From the NCBI GenBank assembly GCA_038087875.1, contig CM075988.1:11596001-11660000 (forward strand): 64,000 nucleotides of DNA, written 5' to 3'. The position numbers and the translations under genes are program-made. Source of the DNA: Malacoraja senta (taxonomy: Eukaryota). Position 1 is the stretch's first letter; each line of letters opens with the position of its first letter. Below, piece after piece: positions 934 to 47,453 of this stretch. The notes beneath the pieces are model-generated. The model was not told where the DNA came from. It ran no database searches and saw only the letters and a program-made list of their open reading frames with translations.

Positions 934-1134
934 GAAAATAGACACAAAAAGCTGGAGTAACTCAGCGGGACAGGCAGCATCTCTGGAGAGAAGGAATGGG
1001 TGACATTTCGGGTCAAGACCCTTCTTCGGTCTCCCATTCCTTCTCCCCACAGATGCTGCCTGTCCCGCTGAGTTACTCCGGCCTTTTGTATCTATCTTCG
1101 GTTTAAACCAGCATCTGCAGTTCCTTCCTACTTA
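934..1134. mobile_element. Palindromic Penelope-derived short element (hammerhead-bearing family A)
   Basis: Inverted arms GCTGGAGTAACTCAGCGGGACAGGCAGCATCT / AGATGCTGCCTGTCCCGCTGAGTTACTCC; 11-bp TSD ATTGTTTTGTT at 923-933 and 1135-1145. Confidence 0.85.
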
Positions 1135-3064: not shown

Positions 3065-3375
3065 AGCGTCATAGTCATATAGCACAGAAACAGGTCCTTC
3101 AGGTGAACTCATCCATGTTGATTAAGATGTCCCATGTAACTTCGTCCTGTTTGCCCACATTTGGCTTGTATGCCTCGAATCCTTTCCTATCCCATGTACC
3201 TGTCCATGTGTCTTTTAACTGGTGTTACTGTATCTGCCTCAACGACGTTTCCAGCAACACGTTCCATATACCCGCCACCCTCTAAGTGAAAAAGTTCCAC
3301 TGCTGGTTCGTATTAAATCTTACCCCCTCTCAACTTAAACATATTTCCTTTTTTGATTCCCCCAACCTGGGTAAA
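3065..3375 (-). mobile_element. CR1 LINE 3' end fragment
   Basis: Similar to the other CR1 3' ends at 37.6, 39.6 and 51.5 kb (GAAACAGG.CCTTC...GTGAAAAAGTT). Confidence 0.75.
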
Positions 3376-6369: not shown

Positions 6370-6940
6370 GATGGTAATCTGATGCAGCTTGATTAATGCA
6401 TCATGATGATGATAATGATGATGATAATTAAAGTTATCATTAGAAGGTGAGCACCTCTGATGTATCCCGATTTTACTAAACCAACAGCAATTAAAACAAA
6501 GTCATGCAGGATCATTAATGGCCCACCTGCATACAGCTGACAATTCCTTTGTTAAATAACCAAATAACTTCACAGATTTTAAAATGTGACCTTGCTCCTT
6601 AAAAAGATTTATATTAAGAACTTCAACAAAGTCCAGCATATCAACTTCAGTGGAAATTGTAATTATGTTTGACGTAGAGACAAGGGCATGTTTCATTGAG
6701 AAGTGTTGGCGCAGCAGTTAAGTGGCCAAACTGTAGAACTAATGGCTAGGAGGAGCACTTCAGAGTCTTGAATTCAAATCCCTACGTTGGGAAATTTACA
6801 TTCATAAGTAAATGCTTTTATTAAAAAATGTAACTAATATGATGATCTCAAATTTATCAGATTCCTTTGAAATCTGTCTGATTTGCTCATGTTCTTTGGA
6901 GATCCTCCACTCCTGGCCAAAGTCCAATTTGTTCCAAGGT

Positions 6941-7081
6941 CTTATTCTTCTTGCATATGGCGTGCACAGCCTAAACTTGTAGGACAACTTGTTCCATTTG
7001 ATCGTATTTGATTGTGCACACTGGCTTGATTGCATTCGTCGAAACAGGACGGACCACATGAAGGTTGCAATCTTCCACACC
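6941..7081 (-). mobile_element. Short retroposon with a 5' HDV-like ribozyme and (AAG)n tail, family 1
   Basis: Near-identical to 19552-19689 and to the partial copy at 17314-17380; 5' end folds as an HDV-like double pseudoknot. Confidence 0.8.
7028..7081 (-). ncRNA. Minimal HDV-like ribozyme
   Basis: GGUGUGG(P1) AA GAUUGCA(P2) ACC(P3) UUCAUGU(L3) GGU(P3') CCGUCCU(P1') G UUUCGA CGAA(J4/2) UGCAAUC(P2'); one P1 mismatch. Confidence 0.75.
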
Positions 7082-7691: not shown

Positions 7692-7913
7692 GGTAGACAA
7701 AAGTGCTGGAGAAACTCAGTGGGTGCAGCAGCATCTATGGAGCGAAGGAAATGGGCAACGTTTCAGGCCGAAACCCTTCTTCAGACTGGAGAAGGGTTTC
7801 AGCCCAAAACGTTGCCTATTTCCTTCGCTCCATAGATGCTGTTGCACCCGCTGAGTTTCTCCAGCATTTTTGTCTACCTTTGATTTTCCAGCATCTGCAG
7901 TTCCTTCTTAAAC
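7692..7913. mobile_element. Full palindromic hammerhead element (family B)
   Basis: Inverted arms of ~90 bp with opposed cores; 14-bp TSD AGATAAGAAAGGAA at 7678-7691 and 7914-7927. Confidence 0.88.
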
Positions 7914-19489: not shown

Positions 19490-19760
19490 GTTATAAGTGA
19501 AAGGAGCAGAATTAGGCCATTCGGCCCATCAAGTCTACTCCGTCACTCAATCTTCTTCTTCTTGCGTATGGCGTGCACAGCCTAAAGTTGTAGGACAACT
19601 TGTTCTTTTTGATCTTGTTTGATTGTGCACGCCAGGTTGATTGCATTCGTCGAAACAGGTTCCACGTGAAGGTTGCAATCTCCCACTCCGTCATTCAATC
19701 ATGGCTGATCTATTTCTCCCTCGTAACCCCATTCTCCTGCCTTCTGACACCTGTCAGAGG
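19490..19760 (-). mobile_element. CR1 3' terminal fragment hosting the nested HDV-ribozyme element
   Basis: GGAGCAGAATTAGGCCATTCGGCCCATC...TTCAATCATGGCTGATCT, as at 42.7 and 54.1 kb. Confidence 0.8.
19552..19689 (-). mobile_element. Short retroposon with a 5' HDV-like ribozyme (damaged P3'/P1') and (AAG)n tail, family 1
   Basis: Direct repeat ACTCCGTCA(C/T)TCAAT at 19537-19551 and 19685-19699; (CTT)4 at the left end. Confidence 0.85.
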
Positions 19761-36170: not shown

Positions 36171-37312
36171 GGGGTTCAATCCTGACTTCCCGTGCTGTCC
36201 CTGTGGAATGTGTGTGTGGCTGCATGGGGTTCCACTGGGAACTTTAACGTCCTCAGCATAACGCAAGGTGATGGACTCACTCTGTGGGACAGGCAGCATC
36301 TCCAGAGGACATGGATAGGCAACGTATTGGGTTGGTACCTTTCTTCAGGCTGAATTACAATTCAGATTATAAATCCTGACTCTTGGAGTAATCTTTCCCG
36401 ACATCTGTCAACTATTTTCCCCCTTCTTTAAGACATCACTTAAGACTTATTTGATGAAACCTTTGGCTATCTGCCTTGATACATCCTGCTTTTTTTCTTC
36501 TTGATAATGGTTCTATGAGACAGCATGTAGATTTTGTTCCATTAAACTGGCTACATAAATAGAACCTGTTGTTTGTTTTGTTCAAATCTCTGTAGATCAA
36601 ATAACCTGCAGCGTGGAACAGCTACAGGTACAAATAGACGATCTATGTCCATTAGAATAACATCGCTTTTTGTGGCTTCGACAACAGGTTTAACCTTATC
36701 GCTCAATTTCTAAAGCACTATACCACTATTATAAATGTTAGAAATCTGTTGGTACTATCTAAGTTTTTTAAAAACAGAAACAGGGGCCCTTGTGGTGCTA
36801 AAATAGCCTTTTGAAATTGTGCCAGTTCTTTCAAATAGCTTGCACACTGCACCTCTGTCCTATATTACACCACTTAAATAAAATAATCAGAATTAGGCTT
36901 TGTGGAAATAAGAAAAAAAATTACAAGAGTTTCAAAGATACAACAGTGTTTTATTTGTCACATGTGCAACTGCACCGTGAATTTATTTGCCTATATTACA
37001 CATGCAGGCACCAACATTATTGGCGCTATTATTCAAAGTCCAGTCACCCAACGACCCAACATGGTGCAATGATACTTAAATCCAAACACCTAAGGCTCGA
37101 AATAGGATTTGTTCCGAACTGTTTTTTCAGTGCCAGTTGTGCATCAGTTTTACCCTGAATAGATCACAGTAGAATCACTTCTGGATAAGATGGTTTCCAT
37201 AGTAAAACTCAGTCGGGCACTTCTATCATCCACATGAGCATACTTGATGATCGCCTTGCACCTGAGGCACAACTAGTGTCATCACCTTGCCGATTTTTAA
37301 TCTCCTTAACAT

Positions 37313-37480
37313 TCTTCTTCTTATCGTGTCCACACACAAGATTAGAAGTTGTTGAGCCAGAGCTGAACACACTTCTCGGCATCTGCATACAATAGTGTCT
37401 GTCTTGTCACTTCTTGTGCGTGGTGGTGAAAAGATTGGTGGAAACAGGGCCGCGACGTGAATGCTCTTTTCTTGATCCCC
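37313..37480 (-). mobile_element. Short retroposon with a 5' HDV-like ribozyme and (AAG)n tail, family 2
   Basis: (CTT)3 left end; imperfect direct repeat TCCTTAACAT/TCCTTATTAT at 37303-37312 and 37481-37490; same architecture as family 1. Confidence 0.75.
37428..37480 (-). ncRNA. Minimal HDV-like ribozyme (family 2)
   Basis: GGGGAUC(P1) AA GAAAAGA(P2) GCA(P3) UUCACGU(L3) CGC(P3') GGCCCU(P1') G UUUCCA CCAA UCUUUUC(P2'). Confidence 0.72.
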
Positions 37481-37624
37481 TCCTTATTATTAATGAAAAC
37501 TCAATGGTGCAACGTGTGGATATTATAGAAATGTCTCCGTTAGTTATTTTCCTTGCTCTGTAAAGGAAAAAAGTCTGTTGACATTGGGAGATTTGACTGC
37601 AGCTTCAGAACTGAATTCACTTAG

Positions 37625-42635: not shown

Positions 42636-42714
42636 ATTTGGAGACTGGATTTCACGTCCCCCATACGTACTGAAAGGAACCTGTCGTAATGAGAGCTTTG
42701 AAGGGGTGGGGGTC

Positions 42715-43195
42715 ATAAGGTCATAAGTGATAAGGTCACAAGGAACAGGAGTATGATTAGGCCATTTGGTCCACCAAGTCTACTCTGCCATTCAATCATG
42801 GCTGATCTATCTCTCCCTCCTAACCCCATTCTCCTGCCTTCTTCCCATAACCTCTGACACCTGTACTAATCAAGAATATATCTATCTCTGCCTAAAAAAA
42901 TATCTAATGACAGCCTCCACAGCCTTCTGTGGCAAAGAGTTCCACAGATTCACCACCCTCAGACTAATGAAATTTCTCTTCATCTCCTTCCTAAAAGAAC
43001 GTCCTTTAATTCTAAGGCTATGACCTCCAGTCCTAGACTCTCCCACTAGTGGAAACATCCTCTCTGCATCCACTCTATACAAGCCTTTCACTATTCCGTA
43101 TGTTTCAATGAGATCCCCTCTCATTCTTTTAAACTCCAGCGAGTACAGTCCCAGTGCGAAAAAACGCTCATCATAGGTTAGCCTACTCTTTTCTG
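42715..43195 (-). mobile_element. CR1 3' fragment
   Basis: MRGDLIETYGIVKG...RVVNLWNSLPQKAVEA plus a short tandem tail. Confidence 0.9.
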
Positions 43196-43694
43196 GTGTA
43201 AAGGCAGGTTGTGGGCTACAGAGCCTGGCACAGCCAGGTTTCCTGCACCCTTGCTTATAAGCATTGTAATAGATCTTTGACCAAAATCACCTGTAATCAG
43301 AGAGCTTTAAATGGTCTGCAGAACTAATGATACTTAAGTACATGCAATAGAATTTGGTTAAAAATAAATATATTTACTCCATTGAGGTAAAACTGAACAA
43401 TTAAATGCATGGGCCTCAAAATTCTACCAAACTCAATAGGTTGTGTCTGAGTGGTGTTAATGTGATGTGGCAAATATTATTTTCATTGTTGTCCTTCGGC
43501 CCACTACATAGAGGCAACAAATCAAGTGTTGCCCTTTATTGCAAATGAAAATGTGTTACTTGGTTTTCTTCTCCAAGGCCAGGTTTAGAATATCGCCAAT
43601 GGACATAGAAACATAGAAAATAGGTGCAGGAGTAGGCCATTCGGCCCTTCGAGCCTACACCGCCATTCAATATGATCATGGCTGATCATCCAAC

Positions 43695-46600
43695 TCAGTA
43701 TCCTGTACCTGCCTTCTCTCCATACCCCCTGATCCCTTTAGCCACAAGGGCCACATCTAACTCCCTCTTAAATATAGCCAATGAACTGGCCTCAACTACC
43801 TTCTGTGGCAGAGAGTTCCAGAGATTCACCACTCTCTGTGTGAAAAATGTTTTTCTCATCTCGGTCCTAAAGGATTTCCCCTTAATCCTTAAACTGTGAC
43901 GTCCTGGACTTCCATAACATCGGGAACAATCTTCCTGCATCTAGCCTGTCCAACCTCTTAAGAATTTTGTAAGTTTCTATAAGACCCCCCCTCAATCTTC
44001 TAAATTCTAGCGAGTACAAGCCGAGTCTATCCAGTCTTTCTTCATATGAAAGTCCTGACATCCCAGGAATCAATCTGGTGAACCTTCTCTGTACTCCCTC
44101 TATGGCAAGAATGTCTTTCCTCAGATTTGGAGACCAAAACTGTACGCAATACTCCAGGTGTGGTCTCACCAAGACCCTGTACAACTGCAGTAGAATCTCC
44201 CTGCTCCTATACTCAAATCCTTTTACTATGAATGCTAACATACCATTCGCTTTCTTCACTGCCTGCTGCACCTGCATGCCTACTTTCAATGACTGGTGTA
44301 CCATGACACCCAGGTCTCATTGCATCTCCCCTTTTCCTAATCGGCCACCATTTAGATAATAGTCTACTTTCCTGTTTTTGCCACCAAAGTGGATAACCTC
44401 ACATTTATCCACATTATACTGCATCTGCCATGCATTTGCCCACTCACCCAGCCTATCCAAGTCACCTTGCAGCTTCCTAGCATCCTTCTCACAGCTAACA
44501 CTGCCCCCCAGCTTCGTGTCATCCGCAAACTTGGAGATGTTGCATTCAATTCCCTCGTCCAAATCATTAATATATATTGTAAATAGCTGGGGTCCCAGCA
44601 CTGAGCCTTGCGGTACCCCACTAGTCACTGCCTGCCATTCTGAAAAGGGCCCGTTTACTCCTACTCTTTGCTTCCTGTTTGCCAGCCAGTTCTCTAGCCA
44701 CATCAATACTGAACCCCTAATACCGTGTGGTTTAAGTTTGTATACTAATCTCTTATGTGGGACCTTGTCGAAAGCCTTCTGAAAGTCCAGATATAACACA
44801 TCCACTGGTTCTCCCTTATCCACTCTACTAGTTACATCCTCGAAAAATGCTATAAGATTCGTCAGACATGATTTACCTTTCGTAAATCCATGCTCACTTT
44901 GTCCAATGATTTCACCACTTTCCAAATGTGCTGCTATCCCATCTTTAATAACTGACTCTAGCAGTTTCCCCACTACCGATGTTAGACTAACTGGTCTGTA
45001 ATTCCCCGTTTTCTCTCTCCCTCCCTTTTTAAAAAGGGGGGTTACATTAGCTGCCCGCCAATCCTCAGGAACTACTCCAGAATCTAAGGAGTTTTGAAAA
45101 ATTATCACTAATGCATCCACTATTTCTGGGGCTACTTCCATAAGTACTCTGGGATGCAGCCTATCTGGCCCTGGGGATTTATCGGCCTTTAATCCATTCA
45201 ATTTACCTAACACCACTTCCCGGCTAACCTGCATTTCACTCAGTTCCTTCATCTCCTTTGACCCGCGGTCCCCTGCTATTTCCGGCAGATTATTTATGTC
45301 TTCCTTAGTGAAGACAGAACCAAAGTAGTTATTCAATTGGTCTGCCATGTCCTTGTTCCCCATGATCAATTCACATGTTTCTGACTGCAAGGGACCTACA
45401 TTTGTTTTAACTAATCTCTTTCTCTTCACATATCTATAAAAACGTTTGCAGTCAGTTTTTATGTTTCCTGCCAGTTTTCTTTCATAATCTATTTTCCCTT
45501 TCCTAATTAAGCCCTTTGTCCTCCTCTACTGGACTCTGAATTTCTCCCAGTCCTCTGGTAGGCAGCTTTTTCTGGCTAATTTGTACGCTTCATCTTTTGT
45601 TTTGATACTATCGCTGATTTCCCTTGTTATCCACGGATGCACTACCTTCCCTGATTTATTCTTTTGCCAAACTGGGATGAATAATTTTTGTAGTTCATCC
45701 ATGCAGTCTTTAAATGCCTTCCATTGCATATCCACCATCAACCCTTCAAGAATCAATTGCCAGTCAATCTTAGCCAATTCACGTTTCATAACTTCAAAGT
45801 TACCTTTCTTTAAGTTCAGAACCCTTGTTTCTGAATTAATAATGTCACTCTCCATCCTAATGAAGAACTCAACCATATTATGGTCACTCTTGCCCAAGGG
45901 GCCACGCACAACAAGACTGCTAACTAACCCTTCCTCATTACTCAATACCCAGTCTAGAATAGCCTGCTCTCTCGTTGGTTCCTCTACATGTTGGTTTAGA
46001 AAACTATCCTGCATACATTCCAAGAAATCCTCTTCCACAGCACCCCTGCCAATTTGATTCACCCAATCTATATGTAGATTGAAGTCACCCATTATAACTG
46101 TTTTATCTTTGTTGCACGCATTTCTAATTTCCTGTTTGATGCCATCCCCAACTCCACTACTACTGTTAGGTGGCCTGTACACAACACCCACTAGCGTTTT
46201 CTGCCCCTTAGTGTTTCGTAGCTCTACCCATATCGATTCCACATCCTCCAAGCTAATATCCTTCCTTTCCATTGCGTTAATCTCCTCTCTAACCAGCAAC
46301 GCTACCCCACCTCCTTTTTCTTTCTGTCTATCCCTCCTGAATATTGAATATCCCTGGATGTTCAGCTCCCAGCCTTGGTCACCCTGGAGCCATGTCTCCG
46401 TGATCCCAACTATATCATAATCATTAATAGCTATCTGCACATTCAACATCCACCTTATTACGAACGCTCCTTGCATTGAGACACAAAGCCTTCAGGCTTG
46501 TTTTTACAACACTCTTACCCCTTATACAATTATGTTGAAAAGTGGCCTTTTTTGATTTTTGCCCTGGATTTGTCTGCCTGCCACGTTTACTTTTCACCTT

Positions 46601-46798
46601 GTTACCTATTGCTTCTACCCTCATTTTGCACCCCTCTGTCTCTCTGCTCACACATTTAAGAAACCCACCACCTCTTATTCTCTGTTTATTATTTTTTTCT
46701 TCTTTCCCCCCTACCTGTTGGGTCTGAGTGCTTCCCTTCTCTGCCTCCTGCCTCACACACTGTCTACAAGCTTTCTCTATTTGAGTCCCTCCCCCCAA
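43695..46798 (-). pseudogene. CR1 ORF2 (APE endonuclease plus reverse transcriptase), disrupted
   Basis: EN motifs LNARS, DIVGITETW, IMGDFN, SDHN; RT motifs YLDFQKAFDKVPH, GVPQGSVLGP, KFADD; frameshifts near 46445 and 43900, stops at 45526 and 44317. Confidence 0.95.
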
Positions 46799-46803
46799 CC
46801 GTT

Positions 46804-47157
46804 CTAGTTTAAAGTCTCCGCAGTAGCCTTTGCAAATCTCCCCGCCAGGATATTGGTCCCCCTCGGGTTCAAGTGCAACCCGTCCTTTTTGTACAGGTCA
46901 CACCTTCCCCAAAAGAGGTCCCAATGATCCAGAAACTTGAATCCCTGCCCACTGCACCAGTCCTTCAGCCACGCATTAATCCTCCACCTCGCTCCATTCC
47001 TACTCTCACTGTCGCGTGGCACAGGCAGTAATCCCGAGATTGTTACCTTTGCGGTCCTTCTCCTTAACTCTCCTCCTAACTCCCTAAATTCTCCTTTCAG
47101 GACCTCTTCCCTTTTTCTACCTATGTCATTGGTACCTATATGTACCACGACCTCAGG
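46804..47157 (-). pseudogene. CR1 ORF1 C-terminal SGNH/GDSL esterase-like domain (partial)
   Basis: VVVHIGTNDIG and KKDGLHLNPRG (GxND and DxxH blocks). Confidence 0.9.
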
Positions 47158-47324
47158 ACACCATGAGACAATAAGAGAGGCAATGTATGAGAGACTGAAG
47201 CCTAGATATTGAGGTGGCAGGGTAGGTTTGTGGTGGGGAGTAGAGTAGGAAGAGTGCTGTGAGATGTGGAGGGAAGGGAAAGAGATCAGATGCCCGGACA
47301 TAACGAAAATAAATAAAATTAATA

Positions 47325-47453
47325 GGAAGGAACTACAAATGCTGGTTTACACCGACGATAGACACAAAATGCTGGAGTAACTCAGCGGGACAGGCAGCAC
47401 CTCTGGAGAGAAGGAATGGGTGACTTTTCGGGTCGAGACCCTTCATCAGACTG
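47325..47453 (-). mobile_element. Single-arm hammerhead element (family A)
   Basis: Minus strand CAGTCTGATGAAGGGTCTCGACCCGAAAAGTCACCC. Confidence 0.82.

What the first reader, a model, noticed from the sequence alone, without database searches (positions are those of the whole stretch)
37313..37480. A second, sequence-divergent family with the same HDV-like fold shows compensatory covariation
Seen: the minus strand reads GGGGAUC-AA-GAAAAGA-GCA-UUCACGU-CGC-GGCCCU-G-UUUCCA-CCAA-UCUUUUC. P2 has a different sequence from family 1 (GAAAAGA/UCUUUUC vs GAUUGCA/UGCAAUC) but still pairs perfectly. P3 also differs (GC[A]/CGC, probably a CpG-decayed GCG, vs ACC/GGU). L3 UUCACGU, the CCU-G-UUUC segment and the A-C-N-A-A junction are conserved. 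The body again forms a long stem (CCACGCACAAGA/UCUUGUGUGUGG) with an inner AGAAGU/ACUUCU helix, then an (AAG)n tail and an imperfect 10-bp TSD. Structure conserved despite sequence turnover is the strongest in-window evidence that the ribozyme is functional and that this is a class of elements, not a single family.
Basis: partly seen in the sequence, partly recalled or inferred. Interest (0 to 1): 0.87.

Follow-up and report, generated by a model that had tools for sequence, protein, structure and literature searches.

The report
Ribozyme-headed SINE-like retroelement copy
This stretch is one decayed copy of a short, more-than-thousand-copy mobile element whose first 52 bases fold like a self-cutting HDV/CPEB3-type ribozyme, and the same genome holds LINE-type elements that carry the full version of that ribozyme.

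Summary
Window 37314-37479 (-) is a 166-nt non-coding retroelement with an (AAG)3 tail and target-site duplications at 37302-37313 and 37480-37491. The genome holds at least 1310 copies.

Its first 52 nt (37428-37479) have the HDV-like nested double pseudoknot without P4. The majority sequence pairs perfectly in P1, P2 and P3. The window copy has decayed at one P1 pair and one P3 pair.

Against family 1, 8 of 16 shared pairs differ on both sides and still pair; none differs on one side only. Only 3 of 20 unpaired positions differ.

Rfam's mammalian CPEB3 ribozyme model found 39 matches above its cut-off in this genome, best 64.2 bits. These keep P4. One lies about 100 nt upstream of an ORF that opens with an AP-endonuclease domain, so it is a LINE 5' end. 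Over 14 distinct ribozyme sequences, 18 of 25 pairs show compensatory change.

A LINE 3' fragment with a 12-nt 3' UTR and an (AAG)n tail shares family 1's last ~28 nt.

Verdict: a bipartite non-autonomous derivative of an RTE-like LINE with a minimal CPEB3-type ribozyme head. This is a new variant of a known kind. Self-cleavage is untested.

The parts
37480..37491 (-). 5' target-site duplication (12 nt; the last 7 match the 3' copy exactly)
   Evidence: Read directly. The same arrangement is seen in 26 of 31 family copies.
37428..37479 (-). HDV-like (CPEB3-type) ribozyme without P4. P1 37474-37479 with 37446-37451. P2 37465-37471 with 37428-37434. P3 37462-37464 with 37452-37454. L3 37455-37461. 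GU 37444-37445. 5-nt linker in place of P4 37439-37443. J4/2 37435-37438, with the candidate catalytic C at 37438.
   Evidence: Model R1 scores 48.1 bits; this row was part of the model. Rfam CPEB3 scores 18.4 bits, E 0.017, in a 301-nt search. Majority sequence and pair counts.
37323..37427 (-). Element body: 4-nt spacer, long stem (37412-37423 with 37330-37341) enclosing an inner helix, then a 7-nt 3' terminal stretch (37323-37329)
   Evidence: Minimum-free-energy folds, z-scores not significant. The body is conserved in all 31 aligned copies.
37314..37322 (-). (AAG)3 tail
   Evidence: Tails of 2 to more than 6 units are seen in the other copies.
37302..37313 (-). 3' target-site duplication
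6940..7081 (-). Family-1 copy (ribozyme 7028-7081), the comparison family
   Evidence: R1 42.8 bits; this copy was not in the model.
19551..19684 (-). Family-1 copy, 5'-truncated and with a deletion in the 3' strand of P1 (ribozyme remnant 19639-19685). 14-nt duplications at 19685-19698 and 19537-19550.
   Evidence: R1 28.6 bits.

Best explanation
Window 37314-37479 (-) is an old, mutated insertion of a 'bipartite' non-autonomous non-LTR retroelement (family 2). The element is a 52-nt ribozyme head, a stem-loop body, a short 3' terminus and an (AAG)n tail.

The head is a minimal version, lacking P4, of the HDV-like ribozyme that sits at the 5' end of an RTE-like LINE lineage in the same genome. 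The LINE versions resemble the mammalian CPEB3 ribozyme closely enough to pass Rfam's cut-off for that family.

Proposed cycle, with each step marked:

1. Master copies have no promoter of their own and are transcribed within longer host transcripts (inferred).
2. The ribozyme cuts immediately 5' of G1, so the RNA starts exactly at the element's first base. The structure, and the 5' ends of genomic copies lying at G1, are shown. The chemistry is inferred.
3. The endonuclease and reverse transcriptase of the LINE recognise the 3' stem, 3' terminus and (AAG)n tail, and copy the RNA into a nicked target by target-primed reverse transcription, leaving 7-15 bp duplications. The duplications and tails are shown. 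Shared 3' sequence with a LINE is shown for family 1 only. Trans-mobilisation is inferred.

The window copy has one broken P1 pair and one broken P3 pair and is probably inactive.
For: Family and insertion signature:
- 1437 candidates, 40 scored at 91-100% identity.
- 1310 exact 21-mers against 0 in the control.
- All 31 aligned copies have unrelated flanks up to the first G.
- A script found duplications of 7-15 bp in 26 of 31 copies. In 21 of those 26 the 5' duplication ends within 2 nt of G1.
- Mean divergence from the majority sequence is 2.6% (n = 31); the window copy differs at 8 of 168 positions.
- Contigs of coded organisms A, B and D run from single-copy flank into the element on both sides, so the insertion predates their split.

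Ribozyme:
- The majority sequence pairs at 16 of 16 positions in family 2 and 17 of 17 in family 1.
- Between families, 8 pairs are identical, 0 changed on one side and 8 changed on both sides. Unpaired positions differ at 3 of 20.
- On 14 distinct sequences (families 1 and 2 plus five P4-bearing variants), 92.2% of cells pair against 77.5 +/- 1.2% in shuffles (0 of 500 reach it). 18 of 25 pairs changed on both sides against 8.7 +/- 1.7. Slid controls pair at 38-45%.
- P2 is not part of the Rfam model's structure line, yet 6 of its 7 pairs are compensatory and 96.9% of its cells pair.
- Near-majority family-2 copies score 30.4 and 33.1 bits on Rfam CPEB3, whose cut-off is 35. One family-2 variant scores 43.7.

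LINE link:
- The genome-wide CPEB3 model search gave 51 matches at E <= 1e-3 out of 59 scored, 39 over the cut-off, best 64.2 bits, and 0 in 14 control genomes.
- The 63.8-bit match (L093) is followed about 100 nt later by an ORF with an Exo_endo_phos N-terminus (24.4 bits, E 2.8e-5).
- A relative with 53% identity (P0004, 995 aa) carries the AP-endonuclease and RVT_1 domains.
- A 5'-truncated LINE in L061 ends with a zinc-knuckle C-terminus, 41% identical to the C-terminus of P0004. Its stop codon is followed by 12 nt and then (AAG)3.
- That fragment shares about 28 nt with the family-1 3' end: local score 38, against a shuffled maximum of 26. It has 480 candidates in the genome.

No tRNA-like head. 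No 7SL, 5S or tRNA match at E <= 10.

Literature:
- P4-less HDV-like ribozymes self-cleave in vitro (bioRxiv 10.1101/2023.06.13.544163, passages read).
- RTE, Ingi/Vingi and R2 LINEs are known to carry 5' ribozymes and to give rise to bipartite non-autonomous derivatives (PMC5786205, passages read).
Against: - No cleavage or RNA data. None of the 20 runs that hold part of the stretch is on record as RNA.
- The window copy has two broken pairs.
- P4 is missing, and activity without it has been shown only for phage and metagenome ribozymes.
- Minimum-free-energy folds are not more stable than shuffles.
- 30 family-1 copies share an uncompensated change in the 3' strand of P3. This fits neutral decay but gives no support.
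- No LINE sharing family 2's own 3' end or its exact ribozyme was found.
- The ribozyme-bearing LINE 5' end (L093) and the (AAG)n LINE 3' end (L061) were not shown to belong to one element. None of the 40 3'-end places lies within 5 kb of a ribozyme place.
- RTE clade membership rests on architecture, not on a tree.
- Rows for one search were picked from matches to a model that already encodes P1, P3 and P4, which favours those helices.
Confidence: 0.8

Rival explanations
1. The head is a dead relic. The compensatory differences between families 1 and 2 arose in two different P4-bearing LINE lineages. Each short element lost P4 separately and spread only because it kept a LINE-recognised 3' end. 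Cleavage plays no part in its spread.
For: Several P4-bearing variants with different P1 and P2 sequences exist in the genome, so helix turnover does occur in that pool. No activity data exist. 30 family-1 copies carry an uncompensated P3 change.
Against: Families 1 and 2 share the same 5-nt replacement of P4, identical at 4 of 5 positions. They also share a U-A pair at the P4-closing position, where all 10 distinct P4-bearing rows have C-G. This points to one loss before the two families diverged. The 5' ends of the copies still lie at G1.
Confidence: 0.13
2. The conserved 5' region works mainly as DNA, as an internal promoter that starts transcription at G1, like Pr77 of L1Tc. The uniform 5' end would then reflect initiation, not cleavage.
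For: In L1Tc and NARTc the same 77 nt are both promoter and ribozyme (PMC3383444, abstract seen in the search listing). The uniform 5' ends fit either reading.
Against: A promoter does not explain compensatory changes that keep four RNA helices paired. The two roles are not exclusive.
Confidence: 0.05
3. A chance resemblance to the HDV fold in an ordinary repeat.
For: The window copy alone scores only 18.4 bits on Rfam CPEB3 and gives no match at E <= 1 when the whole window is searched.
Against: Covariation statistics. Relatives in the same genome score up to 64.2 bits. The control genomes give 0 matches.
Confidence: 0.02

Closest known systems
Mammalian CPEB3 ribozyme (Rfam RF00622)
   Same: Same HDV-like nested double pseudoknot. 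L3, P3 and most of the 3' strand of P1 are identical in sequence to family 2 (alignments). P4-bearing relatives in this genome score 46.5-64.2 bits, above the 35-bit cut-off. One variant class (L098, L100) also resembles the model consensus in P2, P4 and J4/2.
   Different: CPEB3 is a single-copy intronic element of mammals, reported as 'not found outside of mammals' (PMC8233481, passage read). Here the motif is multi-copy and sits at the 5' end of mobile elements. Families 1 and 2 lack P4. The window copy itself is far below the cut-off.
HDV-like ribozymes at the 5' end of non-LTR retrotransposons (R2, RTE, L1Tc/Ingi, LOA, R1, R4)
   Same: Position at the first base of the element. Presumed role in freeing the element RNA from a co-transcript. 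An RTE-like partner with AP-endonuclease and reverse transcriptase, a very short 3' UTR and a short-repeat tail. Described in PMC5786205 and PMC6765202 (passages read). The primary paper, Ruminski 2011, is not held and was not read.
   Different: CPEB3-type sequence, and loss of P4 in the short derivatives. I found no report of this lineage in the searches listed under Tried and rejected.
Bipartite non-autonomous LINEs, SIDEs and NARTc
   Same: A short non-coding element made of a LINE 5' end and a LINE 3' end, with no Pol III head. Dispersed, with target-site duplications (PMC5786205, passages; PMC3414825 and PMC3383444, abstracts in search listings).
   Different: The head is not identical to any LINE 5' end found here: it lacks P4 and has other P1 and P2 sequences. 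For family 2 no LINE with the same 3' end was found. There is a long internal stem of unknown origin.
Minimal HDV-like ribozymes (drz-Mtgn, theta ribozymes of gut phages)
   Same: The P4 domain is replaced by a few nucleotides, and P1, P2, P3 and J4/2 are kept. In vitro self-scission is reported for that class (bioRxiv 10.1101/2023.06.13.544163, passages read).
   Different: Those were found only in bacteriophage genomes next to tRNAs. This one heads a retroelement in a large eukaryotic genome and has a CPEB3-like core sequence.

Membership tests
HDV-like self-cleaving ribozyme (nested double pseudoknot) | P1 of 6-7 bp that opens with a G.U pair at the cleavage site | tested here: met
   The majority sequence has a 6-bp P1 opening with G.U. 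The window copy has one mismatch, at 37476. The first-pair column is G.U in 6 of the 10 distinct rows that have letters there; the other 4 are 5'-decayed or truncated rows.
HDV-like self-cleaving ribozyme (nested double pseudoknot) | P2 pseudoknot, with its 5' strand inside P1 and its 3' strand after J4/2 | tested here: met
   7 bp. 6 of 7 pairs changed on both sides, and 96.9% of cells pair.
HDV-like self-cleaving ribozyme (nested double pseudoknot) | P3 of 3 bp closing a 7-nt L3 | tested here: met
   2 of 3 pairs are compensatory. Five of the seven L3 positions are invariant across alignment A2. The window copy has one A.C mismatch.
HDV-like self-cleaving ribozyme (nested double pseudoknot) | Catalytic cytosine in J4/2 just before the 3' strand of P2 | tested here: met
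   An invariant C at the first J4/2 position in all 16 rows of A2; window position 37438. That it is catalytic is inferred from the family's known mechanism.
HDV-like self-cleaving ribozyme (nested double pseudoknot) | P4 helix | tested here: not met
   Replaced by 5 nt in families 1 and 2. P4 is dispensable in the described minimal class (bioRxiv 10.1101/2023.06.13.544163).
HDV-like self-cleaving ribozyme (nested double pseudoknot) | Site-specific self-scission 5' of G1 | not testable with these tools
   No RNA run is listed. A cleavage assay is needed.
Rfam RF00622, CPEB3 ribozyme | Score at or above the gathering cut-off of 35 bits | tested here: not met
   Window copy 18.4 bits. Near-majority family-2 copies 30.4 and 33.1 bits. 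Met by one family-2 variant (43.7) and by six P4-bearing relatives (46.5-61.3), and by 39 of 59 scored places genome-wide.
Rfam RF00622, CPEB3 ribozyme | Single orthologous locus in an intron of the CPEB3 gene | tested here: not met
   Multi-copy, with unrelated flanks and target-site duplications.
Bipartite non-autonomous LINE | 5' end derived from the 5' end of an autonomous LINE | tested here: met
   The same ribozyme type heads a LINE ORF in L093. The head is homologous but not identical, and P4 is lost.
Bipartite non-autonomous LINE | 3' end shared with the partner LINE | tested here: inconclusive
   Family 1: about 28 nt shared with the LINE fragment in L061, score 38 against a shuffled maximum of 26. 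Family 2: no LINE with its 3' end was found.
Classical SINE (Pol III head from tRNA, 7SL or 5S) | Head derived from a small RNA gene with an internal promoter | tested here: not met
   ARAGORN finds no tRNA-like gene. Rfam at E <= 10 lists only CPEB3 and a weak snoRNA match.
RTE clade LINE (for the partner) | One ORF of about 1000 aa with AP-endonuclease and reverse transcriptase, a very short 3' UTR and a short tandem-repeat tail | tested here: inconclusive
   The architecture fits: relative P0004 is 995 aa with both domains, and L061 has a 12-nt 3' UTR followed by (AAG)3. The list of RTE features is recalled, not read. No tree with reference RTE sequences was built.

The most novel reading that the evidence does not exclude
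The mammalian CPEB3 intronic ribozyme, reported as having no known relatives outside mammals, belongs to a ribozyme lineage carried at the 5' end of RTE-like LINEs. It would have arisen when such an element, or its ribozyme head, landed in the CPEB3 intron. This genome would then hold living or recently living outgroups of it, together with P4-less derivatives that spread to more than a thousand copies.
Probability: 0.4. Interest if true: 0.8.

Novelty: new variant of a known kind. Interest (0 to 1): 0.62.

Why it matters
HDV-like ribozymes at LINE 5' ends, and short 5'+3' derivatives of such LINEs, are established. Three things go beyond that.

1. A P4-less minimal HDV-like ribozyme heads a high-copy element in a large eukaryotic genome. 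That class has so far been described only from phages.
2. There is a natural series within one genome: P4 of 10, 8 and 4 bp, and none. All four helices covary across it, which is good material for asking what the fold needs.
3. LINE-borne ribozymes here pass the curated cut-off of the 'mammalian CPEB3 ribozyme' family by up to 29 bits. This makes the origin of that conserved mammalian ribozyme directly testable.

The organism was not identified. If it is a mammal, the third point weakens but does not vanish.

Tried and rejected
- Rfam at gathering cut-offs on the whole window: 0 matches. At E <= 1 on the whole window: no ribozyme match, only sub-threshold miRNA-like hairpins.
- Minimum-free-energy folding: not more stable than shuffles. 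It cannot see pseudoknots.
- Hunt for a third family with the same L3 and junction motifs by IUPAC patterns that exclude families 1 and 2. The result was 81 hits (19 for the reversed control) and 97 hits (5 control). The 30 places that I read with their flanks were decayed family-1 copies apart from one unrelated place (L068). The remaining hits were judged from the matched strings alone. They look like decayed family-1 or family-2 copies, apart from about ten strings that fit neither family and were not followed.
- The 30 family-1 copies with a G-to-C change in the 3' strand of P3 are mostly uncompensated: 24 of 30 keep the majority 5' strand and none of the other 6 restores the pair.
- Hunt for a LINE with the family-2 stem-loop or last 20 nt preceded by other sequence: 5 and 29 hits, heterogeneous, mostly deletion variants or truncated copies.
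- Hunt for the family-2 or family-1 ribozyme followed by other sequence: 16 and 55 hits, mostly indel variants. One candidate was fetched (L092) and has no long ORF.
- A family-1 copy spaced 5.56 kb apart on contig C1707 lies in a host tandem repeat, not in a LINE.
- Linking the LINE 5' end to the LINE 3' end by coordinates: none of the 40 3'-end places is within 5 kb of a ribozyme place.
- Sequence downstream of two copies of the most CPEB3-like variant (L104, L105) diverges about 37 nt after the ribozyme. What element they belong to stays open.
- The weak R1 match at L091:7004-7087 (19.2 bits, E 0.009) was judged to be chance.
- The LINE in the window at about 42.7-47.4 kb (-) is a different LINE: 27% reverse-transcriptase identity to P0004, a GDSL esterase ORF, and no ribozyme match.
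- No RNA holder is listed among the sequencing runs.
- The search of earlier findings by place, by sequence and by words: nothing.
- The Protein Atlas gave no usable taxon.
- Literature searches for an earlier description: (poorly chosen terms). None returned a paper describing CPEB3-like ribozymes in LINEs, or P4-less HDV-like ribozymes in eukaryotic retroelements. Repbase, Dfam and most subscription journals were not searchable. Supplements were not read.

Full report
**What is in the window.** The unit is a 166-nt element at 37314-37479. It is bounded by a 12-nt duplication with two mismatches (37480-37491 and 37302-37313; the last 7 nt match perfectly). It ends in (AAG)3 at 37314-37322. 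It has no tRNA-like head. An Rfam search at E <= 10 gave no match to 7SL, 5S or tRNA models.

**It is a repeat family, not a chance match.**
- The own genome (1.94 Gb) gave 1437 first-look candidates. The 40 that were scored are 91-100% identical over nearly the full length.
- An exact 21-mer from the 3' half of the head occurs 1310 times, against 0 for the reversed control.
- I aligned 31 copies: the 30 fetched loci plus a second copy in L021. Similarity starts abruptly at the run of G's and ends in (AAG)n, and the flanks are unrelated.
- A script found duplications of 7-15 bp in 26 of the 31 copies. In 21 of those 26 the 5' duplication ends within 2 nt of the first G, and most of the offsets involve flanking G's. 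These 31 are the best-scoring copies, so they are biased towards full length.
- The copies differ from the majority sequence by 2.6% on average. The window copy differs at 8 of 168 positions.

**The insertion is old.** Runs of nine coded organisms hold 17-26% of the sampled words of a 1-kb stretch around the element. I laid four of those runs on the stretch. The element bins reach summed depths of 10^5 to 10^6, while the flanks lie at single-copy depth with about 5-6% other letters. In organisms A, B and D, contigs run from the flank into the element on both sides, so the insertion is older than the split of those species.

**The head.** The majority sequence of family 2 has these parts, in order:
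- a 6-bp P1 that opens with G.U;
- a 2-nt J1/2;
- a 7-bp P2 whose 3' strand lies beyond P1, forming the pseudoknot;
- a 3-bp P3 (GCG/CGC) closing the 7-nt L3;
- GU;
- five nucleotides where P4 would be;
- a 4-nt J4/2 that starts with C;
- the 3' strand of P2.

- The first G (37480) belongs to the duplication, and P1 starts at 37479.
- The window copy has A at 37476 where the majority has G, which breaks one P1 pair.
- The A at 37462 is indeed a decayed G of GCG.

The window's P2 differs from the majority at two partner positions (37470 and 37429), turning G-C into A-U. In four other organisms' runs the majority letters at 37429, 37470 and 37476 are the family majority.

**Family 1.** This family has copies in the window at 6940-7081 and 19551-19684. 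It has at least 769 candidates in the genome and the same plan with a 7-bp P1.

- Of 16 shared pairs, 8 are identical, none changed on one side only, and 8 changed on both sides while staying Watson-Crick.
- Of 20 unpaired positions, 3 differ.

Within each family the individual copies simply decay: 93-94% of cells still pair. Thirty family-1 copies share a change in the 3' strand of P3 that no copy compensates: 24 of the 30 keep the majority 5' strand and none of the other 6 restores the pair. The constraint was therefore on master copies, not on the insertions.

**Relation to the CPEB3 ribozyme.**
- In a 301-nt search the window copy gave one notable sub-threshold Rfam match, the mammalian CPEB3 ribozyme at 18.4 bits.
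- Near-majority family-2 copies reach 30.4 and 33.1 bits against a cut-off of 35. Family-1 copies give nothing at E <= 1.
- Searching the whole genome with that Rfam model gave 51 matches at E <= 1e-3 among the 59 candidates scored. 39 are above the cut-off, the best is 64.2 bits, and 14 control genomes gave none.
- The best matches are 74-89 nt long, which means they contain P4.
- I fetched 11 of the 51, chosen to span the length classes; the other 40 were not examined.
- They fall into at least five sequence variants, with P4 of about 10, 8 and 4 bp. Six of these P4-bearing loci and one family-2 variant were rescored, and all seven pass the curated cut-off at 43.7-61.3 bits.
- One variant class (L098, L100) also resembles the model consensus in P2, P4 and J4/2. 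P2 is not part of the model's structure line.

**Covariation over the whole set.** Alignment A2 has 16 rows, 14 of them distinct: 10 P4-bearing rows, 4 of family 2 and 2 of family 1. I wrote P1, P2, P3 and P4 onto it and counted pairs.

| Measure | Observed | Control |
|---|---|---|
| Cells that pair | 92.2% | 77.5 +/- 1.2% in shuffles (0 of 500 reach it) |
| Pairs changed on both sides | 18 of 25 | 8.7 +/- 1.7 in shuffles (0 of 500 reach it) |
| Cells that pair with partners slid by 1-3 columns | n/a | 38-45% |

Two caveats apply. The rows were picked from matches to a model that encodes P1, P3 and P4. MAFFT also shifted one row (L099) by one column in P1, which lowers the P1 figure. P2 is free of the selection bias, and 6 of its 7 pairs are compensatory.

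**The autonomous relative.**
- In L093 the 63.8-bit ribozyme is followed about 100 nt later by an ORF that runs to the end of the 476-nt locus.
- The start of that ORF matches the start of the Exo_endo_phos profile: 24.4 bits against a cut-off of 24.5, E 2.8e-5, with only the first 45 profile positions present.
- Its relatives in the protein collection include P0004. This is 53% identical, 995 aa long, and carries Exo_endo_phos, Exo_endo_phos_2 and RVT_1.
- Four copies of this variant have unrelated flanks right up to the first G. The fifth (L093) has two changed bases at the start of its P1.
- Separately, one fetched locus (L061) holds a 5'-truncated LINE 3' end. Its ORF C-terminus carries a zinc-knuckle motif (zf-RVT, 19.9 bits, below the cut-off). 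That C-terminus is 41% identical to residues 925-967 of P0004. The stop codon is followed by 12 nt and then (AAG)3.
- The last ~28 nt of that fragment are shared with the 3' end of family 1: local score 38, against a shuffled mean of 15.8 and maximum of 26.
- The fragment is itself multi-copy, with 480 candidates, and 39 further copies at 92-94% identity.

This architecture is what I recall of the RTE clade. That attribution is recalled and was not tested by a tree.

**What stays open.**
- I could not show that the ribozyme-bearing 5' end and the (AAG)n 3' end belong to the same LINE.
- I found no LINE with family 2's own 3' end.
- Nothing here shows cleavage. No RNA run is listed.
- The organism was not identified. 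The flanking repeats recall cartilaginous-fish genomes to me, but that is recollection only.

**Most likely mechanism.** Master copies are transcribed as part of longer transcripts. The head folds and cuts 5' of G1, which explains why the genomic copies begin there. The LINE's endonuclease and reverse transcriptase use the 3' stem, terminus and tail for target-primed reverse transcription, leaving the duplications.

Families 1 and 2 share the same 5-nt replacement of P4, and a U-A pair at the closing position where all P4-bearing rows have C-G. So P4 was probably lost once. The later compensatory changes in P1-P3 then argue that the P4-less fold stayed under selection. P4-less HDV-like ribozymes do self-cleave in vitro in the one class described (bioRxiv 10.1101/2023.06.13.544163, passages read).

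**Comparison with what is known.**
[quoted passage not shown] So are 'bipartite non-autonomous LINEs' from RTE, Ingi, Vingi and R2.
- PMC6765202 (passages read) states that RTEs and some non-autonomous SINEs carry HDV-like ribozymes.
- SIDEs of R2, and NARTc, are earlier examples of ribozyme-headed short derivatives (PMC3414825 and PMC3383444, abstracts in search listings).
- The kind is therefore known. New here are the loss of P4 in a high-copy eukaryotic element and the CPEB3-type sequence.
[quoted passage not shown] My searches found no paper linking it to LINEs. Repbase, Dfam and much of the subscription literature could not be searched.

**Verdict.** The object is a dead copy of a ribozyme-headed bipartite LINE derivative, a new variant of a known kind. 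It also gives a testable lead on the origin of the CPEB3 ribozyme.

Noticed in passing
window 42700-47400 (-): A different, largely intact-looking LINE. It has ORF pieces with a GDSL esterase domain (46807-47346), an AP-endonuclease (45529-46491) and a reverse transcriptase (44320-45525). Its reverse transcriptase is only 27% identical to the ribozyme-LINE relative P0004, and there is no ribozyme match. Its 3' end motif recurs in many flanks, including the site where the family-1 copy at 19.6 kb was inserted.
   Followed up: partly
window 937-1097 and 7717-7854; also L008:337-459: Long, near-perfect palindromic hairpins that match plant miRNA and plastid 3' UTR models on both strands, below their cut-offs. 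They look like hairpin-forming repeats (MITE-like), not like RNA genes.
   Followed up: no
L091 (G000:C1707:24000-33999): A family-1 copy is carried in a host tandem repeat with a 5.56-kb period: three copies on C1707 and two on C2937. The element was amplified there by DNA duplication rather than by retrotransposition.
   Followed up: partly
L098 and L100 with L104 and L105: The variant most like the mammalian CPEB3 consensus (51.4 and 47.7 bits) has decayed or truncated P1 5' strands. The two copies share only about 37 nt downstream of the ribozyme before their sequences diverge. Whether it heads a LINE, a short element or neither is unknown.
   Followed up: partly
window 3087-3107 (-): A 2-mismatch match to the L3/P1 motif lies in an unrelated context and is not part of a ribozyme. 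Model R1 finds nothing there.
   Followed up: yes
window 37429 and 37470: The window copy's two private changes fall on the two partners of one P2 pair, turning G-C into A-U. One other copy (L009) has only the 5' change. With about 8 changes in 168 nt this may be coincidence, or it may mark a minor subfamily.
   Followed up: partly
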